Shown here one piece after another: positions 24,001-30,000 of a stretch of 64,000 bases of DNA. The stretch lies in assembly GCF_000026545.1 (NCBI RefSeq), contig NC_011601.1. One strand, written 5' to 3'. Position numbers: made by a program. The DNA is from Escherichia coli O127:H6 str. E2348/69 (GTDB lineage: Bacteria > Pseudomonadota > Gammaproteobacteria > Enterobacterales > Enterobacteriaceae). Position 1 is the stretch's first letter. Every line of letters begins with the position of its first letter.

Positions 24001-27000
24001 TTGAACTGATACCAGGGTATTTTCAGATAACAGCGGTCCCGAAACTGGCTGTATATGACCCGACGGTGCAGTTTGAGTTCTGGTTCTCGGAAAAGCGGAT
24101 TATCGATATCAGGCAGGTTGAAACCAGCGCGCGTTATCTTGGTACGGCGCTGTACTGGATAGCCGCCAGTAGCAATATTAAGCCGGGTTATGATTATTAC
24201 TTTTATATCCGCAGCGTGAACACCGTAGGTAAATCGGCATTTGTGGAGGCCGTCGGTCGGGCGAGCGATGATGCGGAAGGTTATCTGAATTTTTATAAAG
24301 GGTTGATCAATAAAACGCATCTCGGCAAGGAACTGCTGGAAAACTTTGAGCTGACGGAAGATAACGCCAGCAAACTGGAGGAGTTTTCGAAAGAGTGGAA
24401 GGACGCTAACGATAAATGGAATGCCATGTGGGGCGTCAAACTTGAGCAGACCAAAGACGGCAAACATTATGTCGCGGGTATTGGCCTCAGCATGGAGGAC
24501 ACGGAGGAAGGCAAGCTGAGCCAGTTTCTGGTTGCCGCTAACCGTATCGCGTTTATTGACCCGGCAAACGGGAATGAAACGCCGATGTTTGTGGCGCAGG
24601 GCAACCAGATATTCATGAATGACGTGTTCCTGAAACGCCTGACGGCCCCCACCATTACCAGCGGTGGCAATCCACCGGCATTTTCCCTGACACCGGACGG
24701 AAAGCTGACTGCTAAAAATGCGGATATCAGTGGCAGTGTGAATGCGAACGCCGGGACGCTCAACAACGTCACGGTAAATGAAAACTGTACGATTAAGGGC
24801 ATGCTGGAGGCGACTCAGGTCAGAGGTGACTTCGTTAAAGCTGTATCCAAATCATTTCCGAAACAGGCTGGTACGTGGGGTAACACGGAAACACCAAACG
24901 GGACGGTTACAGTCACCATCAGCGATGATCATAACTTTGACCGTCAAATCATTATTCCGCCCATTATCTTTAACGGAATAGCGTATAGCTATCCGGGAAG
25001 TGGTAATAACCCGGGAGGTACAAGTTACACGGGTTATGGTTTTGAAGTTCGCAAAAACGGTGTATTAATCGCATCCAGAGAAACTAAAGGGGCCATTCCC
25101 GGTAGTTACAGTGCAGTTATTGATATGCCTAGTGGTGGTGGTAGCGTCACTCTGGAGTTTAAGATTTTCCAGAAAGGCAATCAGGGGGCAGGCAATATCA
25201 CCGACTGTACGGTGATTGTGACCAAAAAAGCGGCTTCCGGCATCAGTATTCGTTGAAATTGTTATAACCCATATAAGGGCACCAGAAATGGTGCCTTTTT
25301 TATTGCAGAAAAGCGAGAGGTAATTATGCGTAAAGTTTGTGCAGCCATTTTGTCCGCAGCCATCTGTCTGTCCGTATCCGGTGCGCCTGCATGGGCGTCT
25401 GAACATCAGTCCACACTGAGCGCGGGGTATCTTCATGCCCGGACGAACGCTCCCGGTAGCGATAATCTTAACGGGATTAACGTGAAATACCGTTATGAAT
25501 TTACGGACACGCTGGGGCTGGTGACGTCATTCAGCTATGCAGGAGACAAGAATCGCCAGCTTACCCGTTACAGCGATACCCGCTGGCATGAAGATTCCGT
25601 GCGTAACCGCTGGTTCAGCGTAATGGCGGGGCCGTCTGTGCGCGTGAATGAATGGTTCAGCGCGTATGCGATGGCGGGTGTGGCTTACAGCCGTGTGTCG
25701 ACTTTCTCCGGGGATTATCTTCGCGTAACTGACAACAAGGGGAAAACGCACGATGTGCTGACCGGAAGTGATGACGGTCGCCACAGCGACACCTCTCTGG
25801 CGTGGGGAGCTGGCGTGCAGTTTAACCCGACCGAATCCGTGGCCATTGATATTGCTTATGAAGGCTCCGGCAGTGGCGACTGGCGCACTGACGGTTTCAT
25901 CGTGGGTGTCGGTTATAAATTCTGATTAGCCAGGTAACACAGTGTTATGACAGCCCGCCGGTTCAGGCGGGCTTTTTTGTGAGGTGAATATGGCAGTAAA
26001 GATTTCAGGTGTACTGAAAGACGGCACAGGAAAACCGGTACAGAACTGCACAATCCAGCTGAAAGCAAAACGTAACAGTACCACGGTGGTGGTGAACACG
26101 GTGGCCTCAGAAAATCCGGATGAAGCCGGGCGTTACAGCATGGATGTTGAGTATGGCCAGTACAGCGTCACCCTGCTGGTTGAAGGTTTTCCTCCTTCGC
26201 ATGCCGGGACCATCACCGTGTATGAAGATTCTCAGCCGGGTACGCTGAATGATTTTCTCGGTGCCATGTCGGAGGATGACGTCCGTCCGGAGGCACTGCG
26301 TCGCTTTGAACAAATGGTGGAAGAGGCAGCGCGTCACGCCGGGGAGGCGAAGAAGAATGCCGGAGAGGCGGAGACGTCAGCGAGGAATGCCGGCATATCA
26401 GCCAGTCAGGCAGAAGAGAGCGCGGCAAATGCTGACACTTCAGCAGGGGAGGCATCGGAGTCAGCCCGGCAGGCGGCAGAAAGTGCAGCCGCTGCAAAGA
26501 AGTCAGAGGAAGCGTCCTCGTCCTCGGCCTCTGAGGCCGCTCAAAAAGCCAGTGAGTCATTACAAAGTGCAGCAGATGCTGAGTTGTCAAAAAAGACGGC
26601 AGAAAGTGCAGCCGGTAATGCAGCCAGGGATGCAACGACCGCAGCAGAAAAAGCCCGGGAGTCAGCAGAAAGCGCACAGTCAGCGGAACAAAGCAGGATA
26701 GCGGCGGAAGACGCCGTAAACCGAATCCCCACCGTGGTGGGACCTCCCGGGCCAAAGGGAGAACCGGGGCCCGCGGGTCCTCAGGGGCCGAAGGGAGATA
26801 AAGGAGAGCGTGGCGACACCGGTCCTGTCGGGGCAACCGGTGAGCGGGGACCGGCAGGTGATGCTGGTCCGGCAGGCCCGCAGGGGCCGAAAGGCGACAG
26901 GGGAGAGCGGGGAGAGACCGGTCTGACGGGAAATGCAGGTCCACAGGGTCCAAAGGGAGATACCGGTGCGGCAGGTCCGGCAGGCCCACAGGGACCGAAA

Positions 27001-30000
27001 GGAGAAACAGGTGCGGCTGGCCCGGTGGGGGCAACCGGACCTCAGGGACCAAAGGGCGACCCGGGGGAGACACAAATCCGTTTTCGTCTGGGGCCGGCGA
27101 GCATTATTGAGACAAACAGCAATGGCTGGTTCCCGGGTACAGATGGTGCGCTCATCACCGGACTGACCTTTCTTGACCCCAAAGATGCCACACAGGTTCA
27201 GGGGCTGTTTCAGCATTTGCAGGTCAGGTTTGGTGACGGGCCGTGGCAGGATGTTAAGGGGCTGGATGAAGTGGGCAGTGATACAGGCAGAACAGGAGAA
27301 TGACATGAACGTACTAAAAAAACTTATGCAGCGTCTGTGCGGGTACGGAAAGCATGATGACCGTGAACACGGGGAGTTACTTACAGCACAACTGCGTCTG
27401 GGGCCGGCAGACATCCTGGAGTCAGATGAGAATGGTATTATTCCGGAGCAGGCCAGGGTAATCACGCAGGTGGTGATACTGGATACAGATAAAAAGCAGA
27501 TACAGTGTGTGGTAAGACCGCTGCAAATCCTGCGTGCTGACGGGACGTGGGAAAATATTGGCGGGATGAAGTAACCCGACGGGTTCACAAAAACCGGAGT
27601 CCGGCTCCGGTTTTTGTTGTCATGTCCGGTGGATGTTTGTTATGACTCCCTATATTTCCAGACATCTGTTATCACTTAACCCATTACAAGCCCGCTGCCG
27701 CAGATATTCCCGTGGCGAGCGATAACCCAGCGCACTATGCGGATGCCATTCGTTATAATGCTCGAACGCCTCTGCAAGGTTCTTTGCTGCCGTTAACCCG
27801 TCTGGTTTAGGCATGATACTGATGTAGTCACGCTTTATCGTTTTCACGAAGCTCTCTGCTATGCCGTTACTCTCCGGACTCCGCACCGCCGTGTTCTTCG
27901 GTTCAAGCCCCAACATCCGGGCAAACTGCCGTGTTTCATTAGCCCGGTAGCACGGACCATAACAATTTATAATCTGCTGGCCGGAACTAATGAATTTATT
28001 GGTGAAGGTGACGCATATATTCCGCCTCATACAGGTCTGCCAGCAAACAGTACCGATATTGCACCACCAGATATTCCTGCTGGCTTTGTGGCTGTTTTCA
28101 ACAGTGATGAGGCATCGTGGCATCTCGTTGAAGACCATCGGGGTAAAACGGTTTATGACGTAGCGTCAGGGGACGAGTTATTTATTTCTGAACTCGGTCC
28201 GTTACCGGAAAATGTTACCTGGTTATCGCCGGAAGGGGAGTTTCAGAAGTGGAACGGCACAGCCTGGGTGAAAGATGCAGAAGCAGAAAAACTGTTCCGG
28301 ATCCGGGAGGCGGAAGAAACAAAAAACAACCTGATGCAGGTAGCCAGTGAGCATATTGCGCCACTTCAGGATGCGGTAGATCTGGAAATCGCAACGGAGG
28401 AAGAAAACTCGTTGCTGGAAGCCTGGAAGAAGTATCGGGTGTTGCTGAACCGTGTTGATACATCAACTGCACCTGATATTGAGTGGCCGACTTCACCTGC
28501 AGAGTAATCAACGGCGCAGGGATGATATTTTGTGCTTGAAGTGCCTCCCCGACCATTCAGATAGTCGGGGAGGGGGTATTGGGATTATACGCAATCAGTT
28601 TTAGTAAAAGACCGAAGCTCTCGAAAAATCTTTCTCCAAAACCAGAATGCAATTGATTGATTTTGATAGGATCTATAACGCCGTTACCTTAAACGGCAAA
28701 ACCACTCAAAAACAAACCTAATGTATTGAATATAAAGGATTAATCATCTAATTCGCTCACCTTCTTATTCAGCAGACGAGAAGCGCGCCAGTAAACCAGC
28801 AACATCAGGCCCATTACGATAGTCAGCGTAATGCTGGTGGCTGCACCAAACGGCCAGTCACGAATATTGAGGAACTGTACCTTGATGACGTTACCGATCA
28901 GCAGGTTTTTCGCACCGCCCATCAGGTCGGACACATAGAACAGGCCCATCGCTGGCAGCATCACCAGCAGACATCCGGCAATAATTCCCGGCATCGTTAG
29001 TGGGATAATGATGCGGATAAAGGTCTGCAACTTGCTGGCACCGAGATCGCGCGCCGCCTCAAGCAACGGCTTATCCAGTTTTTCGATACTGGAGTACAGC
29101 GGCATCACCATAAACGGCAGCAGAATGTAAACCAGACCGATAATCACCGCACTAGGCGTGAACATGATGCGAATTGGTGTATCGATAACGCCCAGCCAGA
29201 GCAAAAACTCGTTGAGATAGCCTTTGGTGCTGAGGAAAATTTTCAGCCCGTAAATACGAATCAATGAGTTGGTCCAGAACGGAACAATCAGCAGAAACAG
29301 CAGCAGCGGACGCACCTTGTGTGGCAGCTTCGCCAGAAACCAGGCAAAAGGATAGCCCAGCACCAGGCAGGCGAGGGTGGCGATCAGCGCCATATTCAGC
29401 GAGTGCAATAGCACTTCAAAATAGAGCGGATCGAGCAGACGCGTGTAGTTATCCAGCGTAAAGACCATTTTGACGAAACTGGCGTCGTCGCGGGTCAAAA
29501 AGCTGGTGCCAATGATCATCAGGTTGGGCAGAAAGACAAACAACACAAGCCAACCGACAATAGTGACAATCACTACATTCTGGAACTTACTTGTGTTCTT
29601 CATCAGCCAGTACGACCTCCCAGCTTTCTACCCAATTAATGGCCATTTTTTGGTCGAGAGAGTGGTCAAAGTCAGGATCGTCTTCATTGAAGAATTCGCT
29701 GACCATCACCATCTTGCCATTTTCCAGCTCAACAACCGACTCCAGCGTCATGCCTTTGTAGTTACGCTCGCGAACGTAACCAATCAGCCCTTCGGCGTGG
29801 TTGTCGTCGTTAATCTCTTCAACACGTAAGTCTTCCGGGCGCAGCAGAACATGCAGTTTTTGCCCCGGTTCAACGGCGAAGTTAACGTAGATATTACATT
29901 CGCGGCCTTCAACGTTGGCGCGTACGCGCTGCTCGTCGAGACGTTCGATGACAGTGGCGTTAAACATATTGATTTCGCCAATAAACCCGGCAACAAACAG

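What the first reader, a model, noticed from the sequence alone, without database searches (positions are those of the whole stretch)
25984..28507. Side tail fibre with a long collagen-like repeat, a possible duplicated tip module, and an IS2-truncated tfa
The stf product has a lambda Stf N-terminus, ~105 residues of Gly-X-Y repeats and a short tip domain. The next 89-aa ORF repeats motifs from that tip, suggesting a swapped or duplicated receptor-binding module. A ~300-bp IS2 end fragment then replaces the start of tfa.
Basis: partly seen in the sequence, partly recalled or inferred. Interest (0 to 1): 0.35.

Follow-up and report, generated by a model that had tools for sequence, protein, structure and literature searches.

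The report
Collagen-like prophage tail fibre, decayed end
This is the right-hand end of a dead lambda-like prophage in E. coli E2348/69: a well-known collagen-like side tail fibre gene with its usual small companion gene, then a scrap of insertion sequence IS2 joined to a leftover tail-fibre-assembly gene. It is ordinary and already described.

Summary
The window is E. coli E2348/69, 100% identical.

- **stf (25990-27303, 437 aa).** It has exactly the published "EPclA" architecture (Ghosh 2012). There is a lambda-Stf N-terminal collar domain, a 117-aa Ala/Ser/Glu-rich region, 37 uninterrupted Gly-X-Y triplets (111 aa, not ~105), and a 64-aa Phage_fiber_C (PfC) knob.
- **The 89-aa ORF (27305-27574).** It is a stand-alone PfC paralogue, 37% identical to the Stf knob. 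It is not a local duplication, a swap or a frameshifted stf end. The pair is an old, conserved two-gene module. It is full length in 295 phage records. The ORF has its own SD and ATG and is under purifying selection (dN/dS about 0.07). Its function is unproven. I infer a separately translated accessory protein of the fibre tip.
- **The IS2 piece (about 27648-27950).** It is 95-98% identical to IS2 and dead. It sits at the same site as a full IS2 in another strain.
- **tfa.** It lost only about 8 codons, not its first third. It is the orphan of a lambda-type stf-tfa module, which related prophages at the potB site still carry intact.

Interest is low; everything here is already known or annotated.

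The parts
25990..27303 (+). stf: EPclA-type collagen-like side tail fibre, 437 aa. SD GAGGTG lies at 25981-25986.
   Evidence: PGAP CDS WP_000279191.1. Pfam finds phage_tail_N, Collagen and Phage_fiber_C. Length and domain lengths match EPclA in Ghosh 2012 Table 2.
25990..26388 (+). PfN: N-terminal collar or attachment domain (aa 1-133) that docks the fibre on the tail tip.
   Evidence: PF08400 E 7.8e-70. Residues 1-93 match the 'Tail fiber protein' chain of PDB 9e7m (Ur-lambda) at E 4.7e-52. In Ur-lambda, 12 copies of this domain form a collar that contacts gpV and gpM (PMC12617516).
26389..26739 (+). PCoil: low-complexity Ala/Ser/Glu-rich region (aa 134-250), a presumed trimeric alpha-helical coiled coil.
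   Evidence: 117 aa, 65% A+S+E and only 6.8% L+V+I. This matches the PCoil described and shown to be trimeric and alpha-helical by Ghosh 2012.
26740..27072 (+). Collagen-like domain: 37 uninterrupted Gly-X-Y triplets (aa 251-361).
   Evidence: Regex count. Pro occupies 18 of 37 X positions. PF01391 matches. The strongest PDB sequence matches are collagen chains. A 45-nt internal tandem repeat lies at 26935-27025.
27076..27267 (+). PfC knob of Stf (aa 363-426): C-terminal trimerisation domain and presumed distal tip.
   Evidence: PF06820 E 3.5e-36, profile positions 1-64 of 64. PfC was shown experimentally to trimerise and to nucleate refolding of the triple helix (Ghosh 2012).
27305..27574 (+). 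ORF2: 89-aa stand-alone PfC paralogue. The PfC domain is aa 28-89 (27386-27571). The ATG lies 1 nt after the stf stop, in the +1 frame, with SD GGAG at 27295-27298, 6 nt upstream of the ATG.
   Evidence: PGAP CDS WP_001101709.1. PF06820 E 2.7e-34. phrog_576 E 1.3e-58. dN/dS is 0.07 in the PfC part. AF2 gives helix 3-12, a disordered stretch 13-23 with no secondary structure up to about residue 29, and a beta domain 30-84.
27587..27617 (+). Intrinsic-terminator-like hairpin after ORF2 (AAAAACCGGAG...CTCCGGTTTTT). It lies near the end of the module conserved among related prophages, which extends to about 27645.
   Evidence: Fold energy is -24.6 kcal/mol, z -3.85. It is conserved in four related prophages. 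The consensus scan did not list it.
27646..27650 (.). CTCCC: the surviving copy of the 5-bp IS2 target duplication.
   Evidence: In strain SCPM-O-B-9504 a complete 1331-bp IS2 sits at this same site in the same orientation, flanked by CTCCC on both sides.
27648..27950 (-). IS2 relic, about 303 nt, corresponding to IS2 nt about 1020-1322 of 1331. It holds the 3' part of orfB and the inner part of IRR. The outer boundary is ambiguous by 3 nt (CCC). The inner boundary is ambiguous within 27951-27960.
   Evidence: 95.0-98.4% identity to four full IS2 copies. It lacks TGGATTTGC(CCC) at the IRR tip. It lacks the left ~1019 nt. NCBIfam IS2 TnpB matches positions 173-301 of 301.
27951..28507 (+). tfa remnant: 185 of 194 codons of a lambda-type tail fibre assembly gene. 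The start codon and first ~8 codons are missing. The junction with IS2 lies in a 10-nt microhomology (window CACGGACCAT, IS2 CATGAACCAT).
   Evidence: 97% nt identity over the first 170 nt compared and 91% aa identity to lambda tfa. PF02413 E 5.7e-45. There is no ATG, GTG or TTG and no SD before 28088. PGAP calls a chimeric CDS from a CTG at 27926 inside the IS2 relic.

Best explanation
**What it is.** The region is the distal tail-fibre end of a defective lambdoid prophage. The prophage is integrated between potB and potC of E. coli E2348/69.

**The fibre (anatomy shown here; behaviour taken from published homologues).**
- stf encodes an EPclA-type side tail fibre.
- Three chains would attach to the tail tip through the lambda-like N-terminal collar domain.
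- They extend through an Ala/Ser/Glu coiled coil and a 37-triplet collagen triple helix.
- They end in a trimeric PfC knob, which registers the triple helix and presumably contacts the cell surface.

**ORF2.**
- It is a separately initiated paralogue of that knob, with its own SD and ATG.
- It is conserved as a protein across E. coli Stx-converting and other lambdoid phages.
- Inferred, about 35% likely: it is an accessory protein of the fibre tip, such as an assembly factor, cap or adhesin. In these fibres it would take the place that Tfa holds for lambda-type fibres.
- The Sp5 homologue is dispensable in the laboratory.

**Reconstructed history.**
- The resident potB-site prophage lineage normally carries a long lambda-type Stf plus its cognate Tfa.
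- Here the J-lom-stf-ORF2 block is 99.6% identical to that of another E2348/69 prophage.
- An IS2 had inserted just past the ORF2 terminator.
- An illegitimate join at a 10-nt microhomology then removed the left ~1 kb of IS2 and everything up to tfa codon 9.
- A 12-nt deletion clipped the IS2 tip.

**Present state.**
- tfa is therefore a promoter-distal, start-less orphan with no cognate fibre.
- The IS2 piece is inert.
- The prophage also lacks its capsid and tail-tube genes, so it cannot mount this fibre on a virion of its own.
For: **Identity.** The region is 100% identical to NZ_CP059840.2.

**Domains and fit to EPclA.**
- Domain architecture.
- It fits EPclA exactly: 437 aa, PCoil about 116, Col 111. 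Trimerisation by PfC and PCoil is shown experimentally (Ghosh 2012).
- The N-terminal domain matches the Ur-lambda collar domain.

**ORF2.**
- SD and ATG are conserved in 11 loci.
- dN/dS is 0.07, with pS 0.13.
- It is full length in 295 of 296 phage records.
- A distant relative keeps the pair with a different shaft and a different junction.
- The Sp5 homologue ORF68 is non-essential.

**History.**
- A full IS2 sits at the same site with the CTCCC duplication.
- The IS2/tfa junction is mapped.
- The tfa-attR-potB junction is present in 906 of 5426 genomes.
- Strain 20AR1039 has J, lom, a 1132-aa Stf and an intact Tfa at the same site.
- Against that locus, homology stops at 26411 and resumes at 27951. 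Window 23000-27645 is 99.6% identical to the nleH/cif prophage.

**Defectiveness.** Partial S49 peptidase and NlpC/P60 CDSs abut each other between the portal gene and the tail assembly gene upstream of J.
Against: - No experiment or structure shows that ORF2 binds the fibre.
- Recombinant EPclA trimerises and refolds without ORF2 (Ghosh 2012), so ORF2 is not required for trimer formation.
- The Sp5 deletion mutant is viable.
- My linked-trimer AF2 model of ORF2 failed (pLDDT 29), so even its oligomeric state is unsupported.
- The order of events (recombination, IS2 insertion, deletions) is a parsimony reconstruction.
- The shared IS2 site could be a hot spot rather than shared ancestry. The IS2 portion is 95% identical to that copy but 98.4% identical to others.
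- PGAP annotates tfa as an intact CDS with a CTG start, so some expression cannot be excluded.
Confidence: 0.8

Rival explanations
1. ORF2 is an alternative fibre tip. It would be joined to Stf by a programmed +1 ribosomal frameshift, giving two fibre variants from one gene pair.
For: - ORF2 lies in the +1 frame, 1 nt after the stf stop.
- The GenBank record of phage AU6Stx1 annotates the homologue as 'atfT, alternate tail fiber tip; slippery sequence and pseudoknot predicted ... for +1 frameshift'.
- ORF2 carries the same domain as the tip.
Against: - The ORF2 frame is closed by a stop until Stf residue 393, inside Stf's own PfC. In one close relative it is closed until residue 426. In the distant relative L016 it is closed until 1 codon before the ATG. 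A shift could therefore only append ORF2 to a nearly complete Stf, not replace the tip, and the open window is not conserved.
- A canonical SD plus ATG is conserved in every copy.
- The last sense codon before the stop is GAA. From the sequence, it would re-pair poorly in the +1 frame; this is my inference.
- Mondal 2016 looked for frameshift signals in Sp5 and found none.
Confidence: 0.05
2. ORF2 is not needed as a protein. It would be a silent DNA reservoir from which recombination creates new Stf tips. This is the proposal of Mondal 2016 and, in effect, of the first reader.
For: - The two domains are paralogous.
- ORF68 is non-essential in Sp5.
- One database protein, P0121, is a chimera of the ORF2 N-terminal half and the Stf PfC C-terminal half.
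- The Stf PfC shows relatively more amino-acid change (dN/dS 0.63) than ORF2.
Against: - There is strong purifying selection on the ORF2 protein: dN/dS 0.07 with appreciable synonymous divergence, pS 0.13.
- Start codon and SD are intact in all copies.
- The ORF is full length in 295 of 296 phage records.
- The two paralogues are only 37% identical in protein, too divergent for efficient homologous exchange.
- They have stayed distinct in a distant relative.
- The single chimera comes from one cluster and may be an assembly artefact of multi-prophage genomes.
Confidence: 0.1
3. The 89-aa ORF is the true 3' end of an stf gene broken by a frameshift mutation.
For: Some EPclA genes in O157 genomes are indeed split by frame loss (Ghosh 2012, Table 2). 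ORF2 follows stf directly.
Against: - Stf here is 437 aa, with all four domains, and ends at the same residue as intact EPclA proteins.
- ORF2 has a distinct N-terminal 27 residues and its own SD and ATG.
- It is a separate CDS in every relative.
Confidence: 0.01

Closest known systems
EPclA, the E. coli prophage collagen-like protein A (e.g. ECs2717 of O157:H7 Sakai; Ghosh et al. 2012, PLoS One 7:e37872)
   Same: Same length (437 aa) and same domain order: PfN, PCoil, Col, PfC. Same collagen length (111 aa) and PCoil of about 116 aa. Same position after J and lom. The stf-plus-ORF2 DNA (query 1-1659) is about 95% identical to the copy in VT1-Sakai.
   Different: Nothing of substance. This copy sits in a defective EPEC prophage, not an EHEC one. 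A few tip residues differ.
ORF68 of Stx2 phage Sp5, also L0122 of 933W and H0003 of VT1-Sakai: the 89-aa 'phage fiber C-terminus' ORF downstream of the collagen-like fibre gene (Mondal et al. 2016, Sci Rep 6:39036)
   Same: Same 89-aa length. VT2-Sakai (Sp5) is 88.8% identical, and VT1-Sakai also carries it. Same position and same stop/start junction (GGAGAATGACATG).
   Different: In Sp5 and 933W it follows the longer EPclB fibre of a short-tailed phage. Here it follows the EPclA fibre of a long-tailed lambdoid prophage.
Lambda Stf-Tfa side tail fibre module (Ur-lambda)
   Same: The N-terminal ~115 residues of Stf are about 90% identical. They match the solved collar domain. The gene order J-lom-stf is the same. 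The tfa remnant is 91% identical to lambda Tfa.
   Different: From about residue 140 onward the fibre is unrelated to lambda's. It has no gp37-like distal domain and no receptor-binding C-terminus that Tfa serves. tfa lacks its start and is separated from stf by ORF2 and an IS2 scar.
IS2 (IS3 family)
   Same: 95-98% nucleotide identity over 303 nt to annotated IS2 copies. One copy of a 5-bp target duplication remains.
   Different: Only about 23% of the element is left. It has no left end, no orfA and only the last ~100 codons of orfB. The tip of the right inverted repeat is deleted.

Membership tests
EPclA collagen-like prophage tail fibre (Ghosh 2012) | N-terminal PfN domain (Pfam PF08400) | tested here: met
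   233.6 bits against a cutoff of 26.6, residues 1-133.
EPclA collagen-like prophage tail fibre (Ghosh 2012) | PCoil: a low-complexity region of ~116 aa almost lacking Leu, Val and Ile | tested here: met
   117 aa, 6.8% L+V+I, 65% A+S+E.
EPclA collagen-like prophage tail fibre (Ghosh 2012) | A single uninterrupted (Gly-X-Y)n collagen domain | tested here: met
   37 triplets, 111 aa. PF01391 matches.
EPclA collagen-like prophage tail fibre (Ghosh 2012) | C-terminal PfC domain (Pfam PF06820) | tested here: met
   123.8 bits against a cutoff of 25, residues 363-426.
EPclA collagen-like prophage tail fibre (Ghosh 2012) | Forms a trimer with a collagen triple helix | not testable with these tools
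   Shown for the homologue rEPclA by SEC/MALLS, CD and EM. Not tested for this copy.
Lambda-type side tail fibre Stf | N-terminal collar domain that docks on the tail tip | tested here: met
   E 4.7e-52 to PDB 9e7m 'Tail fiber protein' residues 1-93. About 90% identity to lambda orf-401 over the first 115 aa.
Lambda-type side tail fibre Stf | Long distal gp37-like shaft and C-terminal receptor-binding domain served by Tfa | tested here: not met
   Similarity to lambda orf-401 fades into low-complexity Ala/Ser matches after residue ~115. DNA homology to the potB-site long Stf stops at 26411. The C-terminus is Col plus PfC instead.
Pfam Phage_fiber_C (PF06820), for the 89-aa ORF | Match above the gathering score over the whole domain | tested here: met
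   117.8 bits against a cutoff of 25, profile positions 1-64 of 64.
Tail fibre assembly protein Tfa (Caudo_TAP PF02413; lambda gp Tfa) | Caudo_TAP domain | tested here: met
   153.1 bits against a cutoff of 22.1. 91% identity to lambda Tfa.
Tail fibre assembly protein Tfa (Caudo_TAP PF02413; lambda gp Tfa) | Complete gene with its own start codon and ribosome-binding site | tested here: not met
   The first 25 nt are replaced by IS2 sequence. There is no ATG, GTG or TTG before 28088 and no SD.
Tail fibre assembly protein Tfa (Caudo_TAP PF02413; lambda gp Tfa) | Lies directly after the cognate fibre gene whose C-terminus it folds | tested here: not met
   The upstream fibre has a PfC tip. The cognate arrangement (long Stf then Tfa) is seen at the same chromosomal site in strain 20AR1039.
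IS2 insertion sequence | High nucleotide identity to IS2 | tested here: met
   95.0-98.4% over 303 nt.
IS2 insertion sequence | Two terminal inverted repeats, orfA and orfB intact, flanked by a 5-bp duplication | tested here: not met
   The left ~1019 nt are absent. The IRR tip (12 nt) is deleted. One CTCCC copy remains.

The most novel reading that the evidence does not exclude
The small PfC paralogue (the ORF2/ORF68 family) may be a so far unrecognised class of tail-fibre accessory protein. It would have been born by duplication of the fibre's own tip domain. It would bind the PfC knob of collagen-like fibres as a cap, adhesin or assembly factor, functionally replacing Tfa. That would explain why tfa decays in these prophages.
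Probability: 0.3. Interest if true: 0.4.

Novelty: already known. Interest (0 to 1): 0.15.

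Why it matters
For this locus, little. It documents how prophage fibre modules are reshuffled and scarred by IS elements in a reference EPEC genome.

The one open point of wider interest is the function of the 89-aa PfC paralogue.
- It is carried by 296 phage records, most of them Stx-converting phages, and by more than a thousand database sequences.
- It is under strong purifying selection.
- It is still annotated in contradictory ways: 'tail fiber protein', 'assembly chaperone', 'alternate tip', 'hypothetical'.

Knowing its role would bear on the host range of Shiga-toxin phages.

Tried and rejected
1. **Linked-trimer AlphaFold model of ORF2.** I joined three copies with (GGGGS)5 linkers and supplied a concatenated alignment. 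The result was mean pLDDT 28.9 and pTM 0.17, which is uninformative.
2. **Sequence search of PfC and ORF2 against the PDB.** No meaningful hit. There is no solved PfC structure by sequence.
3. **Profile search of 1.84 billion representative proteins.** Only 80 hits, mostly fragments of the same E. coli proteins. The alignment therefore stayed shallow.
4. **Virion proteomics of phi24B.** The protein table is an image and could not be read, so I could not tell whether the ORF2 homologue is in virions.
5. **The Iguchi 2009 E2348/69 genome paper.** It is not held, so I could not assign the published prophage number.
6. **Long antisense ORFs across the collagen repeat** (286 and 302 aa) and the +1-frame 150-aa ORF. 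None has a Pfam match. I treat them as by-products of the GC-rich repeat.
7. **The consensus terminator scan.** It missed the hairpin after ORF2. Folding showed it clearly.
8. **Covariation between Stf-PfC and ORF2 variants.** I considered it, but there were too few independent pairs in hand.

Full report
**Origin and context**

The 2577-nt region is 100% identical to the chromosome of enteropathogenic E. coli E2348/69, NZ_CP059840.2. NCBI's annotation there reads: gpJ, Lom, 'prophage tail fiber N-terminal domain-containing protein', 'phage tail fiber C-terminal domain-containing protein', a partial 'integrase core domain' pseudogene, 'tail fiber assembly protein', then potB, potA and pepT.

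The prophage fills about 40 kb between potB and potC. Integrase and excisionase lie at the far end, next to potC.

The prophage is defective:
- A truncated S49-peptidase CDS abuts a truncated NlpC/P60 CDS, between the portal gene and the tail assembly gene upstream of J. By lambda's gene order (my knowledge), this implies loss of the capsid, tail-tube and tape-measure genes.
- Three IS transposase genes sit in the prophage.

**The fibre gene**

stf runs from ATG 25990 to 27303 and encodes 437 aa.

| Domain | Residues | Evidence |
|---|---|---|
| phage_tail_N | 1-133 | Pfam, |
| Ala/Ser/Glu-rich region | 134-250 (117 aa, 6.8% Leu+Val+Ile) | |
| Collagen, 37 uninterrupted Gly-X-Y triplets | 251-361 (window 26740-27072) | |
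| Phage_fiber_C (PfC) | 363-426 | Pfam, |

- The first ~115 residues are about 90% identical to lambda orf-401.
- Residues 1-93 match the solved Ur-lambda side-fibre collar domain, PDB 9e7m, at E 4.7e-52. In Ur-lambda that domain forms a 12-copy collar on the tail tip and contacts gpV and gpM (PMC12617516).
- The whole architecture, down to 437 aa, a PCoil of ~116 aa and 111 collagen residues, is the 'EPclA' type of Ghosh et al. 2012. They showed for a Sakai homologue that the protein is a dumbbell-shaped trimer, that PCoil and PfC are trimerisation modules, and that PfC nucleates refolding of the collagen helix (PMC3368898).

This part of the finding is correct and already known.

**The 89-aa ORF**

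ORF2 occupies 27305-27574. It starts 1 nt after the stf stop, in the +1 frame, behind a GGAG motif (GGAGAATGACATG). Residues 28-89 match the same Pfam domain, PF06820, end to end (E 2.7e-34). They are 37% identical to the Stf knob (E 9e-14).

The duplication is neither local nor recent:
- The same pair, with the same junction, occurs in all ten related loci with a PfC-tipped fibre that I examined. These are eight E. coli prophages, among them VT1-Sakai, plus the laboratory hybrid lambda h434 imm21 and the short-tailed Stx1 phage AU6Stx1.
- 296 phage records carry ORF2, and 295 of them carry it full length. All are E. coli Stx-converting or lambdoid phages.
- A more distant relative (L016) has a fibre with a different, non-collagen shaft that ends in a PfC domain. 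It is followed by an ORF2-type protein 56% identical to this one, with a different, overlapping junction. Both paralogues have thus been kept as distinct lineages.
- Lambda itself and two prophages with lambda-type long fibres lack ORF2.
- The family is very narrow: 80 representatives among 1.84 billion proteins.

**Is ORF2 a gene?**

- Across seven loci, the PfC part of ORF2 has pS 0.128 and pN 0.009, giving dN/dS 0.07.
- The Stf knob has pS 0.031 and pN 0.019, giving dN/dS 0.63. The counts are small, so I treat the contrast as suggestive only. The ORF2 result, however, argues clearly for a constrained protein.
- The AF2 monomer model (mean pLDDT 74, core about 85-90) has a short N-terminal helix (3-12), a low-confidence stretch (13-23) with no secondary structure up to about residue 29, and a small beta domain (30-84).
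- Weak Foldseek hits in BFVD are to tail fibre proteins of various phages.

**What ORF2 does**

Three ideas are on record:
1. An 'intragenomic reservoir' for tip variation. It was proposed for the Sp5 homologue ORF68, which is non-essential (Mondal 2016, PMC5155283).
2. An 'alternate tail fiber tip' made by a +1 frameshift (GenBank annotation of AU6Stx1).
3. A 'tail fiber assembly chaperone' (annotation of lambda h434 imm21).

The frameshift idea fits poorly:
- The ORF2 frame is closed until Stf residue 393, inside Stf's own knob.
- In one close relative it is closed until residue 426.
- In the distant relative it is closed until 1 codon before the ATG.
- SD plus ATG is conserved throughout.

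The reservoir idea is contradicted by the purifying selection and by the 37% identity. One chimeric database protein, P0121, is noted.

I therefore favour a separately translated accessory protein of the fibre tip. This is an inference, not a demonstration:
- Recombinant EPclA trimerises without ORF2.
- The Sp5 mutant is viable.
- My attempt to model an ORF2 trimer failed.

**The IS2 scar**

- Window 27648-27950 is 95.0-98.4% identical to four full IS2 copies. It corresponds to IS2 nt ~1020-1322.
- In strain SCPM-O-B-9504 a complete 1331-bp IS2 lies at exactly this position after ORF2. It has the same orientation and is flanked by CTCCC on both sides.
- The window keeps one CTCCC (27646-27650). 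It has lost 12 nt at the IS2 tip, between CCC repeats, and the whole left ~1 kb.
- Sequence shared with other prophages ends here, at about 27645. Downstream, different strains carry different cargo, often type III effector genes such as nleH, cif, nleB and nleC.

**tfa**

- DNA homology to lambda tfa (97% over the first 170 nt compared) begins at 27951, which is lambda tfa nucleotide 26. The protein is 91% identical to lambda Tfa up to a few residues before the C-terminus, with no frameshift or internal stop.
- The IS2/tfa joint lies in a 10-nt microhomology (CACGGACCAT against CATGAACCAT).
- No canonical start or SD exists before the GTG at 28088. PGAP's 193-aa 'tail fiber assembly protein' starts at a CTG inside the IS2 relic.
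- The tfa-attR-potB junction is found in 906 of 5426 complete E. coli genomes.
- In one of them, 20AR1039, the same site carries J, lom, a 1132-aa lambda-type Stf and an intact Tfa.
- Against that locus, the window's homology stops at 26411 (Stf codon ~140) and resumes at 27951.
- Window 23000-27645 is 99.6% identical to a second E2348/69 prophage that carries nleH and cif downstream.

The simplest reading is this. The tfa is the orphan of a lambda-type stf-tfa module. Its fibre gene was replaced by the EPclA-ORF2 block, and the right-hand joint was made or trimmed by IS2-associated illegitimate deletion. Other EPclA prophages keep only shorter 3' tfa remnants beyond their cargo genes, which fits progressive decay of an unneeded gene.

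**Verdict**

The tip domain is indeed duplicated, but as an ancient, conserved, separately expressed paralogue that is already noted in the literature. It is not a swap or a recent duplication.
- Everything is annotated in the reference genome and described in published work. Only the function of the small PfC protein remains open.

Noticed in passing
window 1-28739, continuing beyond the window's left end; potB at 28740-29603 (-): The ~40-kb prophage sits between potB and potC and so splits the potABCD operon. Integrase and excisionase are next to potC. The tfa-attR-potB junction occurs in 906 of 5426 complete E. coli genomes, so this is a common integration site.
   Followed up: partly
window ~20789-21237 (L001 806-1254): A partial S49-peptidase CDS (missing its C-terminus) overlaps a partial NlpC/P60 CDS (missing its N-terminus). 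By lambda gene order this implies deletion of the capsid, tail-tube and tape-measure genes (C' to 'K), so the prophage cannot build its own virion.
   Followed up: partly
window 23000-27645: The J-lom-stf-ORF2 block is 99.6% identical to that of a second E2348/69 prophage, which carries nleH and cif downstream (L007). Both encode identical Stf and ORF2 proteins. Identity ends exactly at the IS2 scar. This suggests recent exchange between prophages of the same genome.
   Followed up: partly
window 27926-28507: RefSeq annotates an intact 193-aa 'tail fiber assembly protein' (WP_072131109.1). It starts at a CTG inside the IS2 relic, so its first ~9 codons are antisense IS2 sequence. It is probably better treated as a pseudogene.
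   Followed up: yes
window 1372-2460, 11265-12638, 12776-13234: Three further IS transposase genes lie inside the prophage: an IS481 family element, ISEc13 and IS200C. A frameshifted integrase fragment lies just beyond the window's left end. All point to advanced decay.
   Followed up: no
protein P0121 (database cluster; not in the window): This is a 92-aa protein. Its first ~40 residues are ORF2-type and the rest is the Stf PfC C-terminus. It is either a natural recombinant between the two paralogues or an assembly chimera.
   Followed up: no
protein P0147 (database; not in the window): This is a 565-aa protein with four tandem PfC-like domains followed by a collagen repeat. PfC-like domains can therefore be strung in series in other fibre-like proteins.
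   Followed up: no
window 27076-27267 versus 27386-27571: The Stf knob shows low synonymous but relatively high non-synonymous divergence (dN/dS 0.63), concentrated at a few positions (N/Q/H, G/D, L/M/F). The ORF2 knob is at 0.07. This could mean the Stf knob, not ORF2, is the surface under diversifying pressure. Counts are small.
   Followed up: partly
NZ_LT827011.1 (another assembly of E2348/69): This 4.85-Mb 'variety 2' assembly has no place covering the ORF2-IS2-tfa junction. Its best match covers only 64% of the query, and it is not among the two genomes with the junction. The potB prophage end may be absent or different in that isolate.
   Followed up: no
L017-L019 (Citrobacter rodentium, per the source names): The Stf/ORF2 pair there is degraded. 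Stf is a 161-aa remnant. The ORF2 homologue has lost its original N-terminus through a frame change. An NleG effector gene lies downstream.
   Followed up: no
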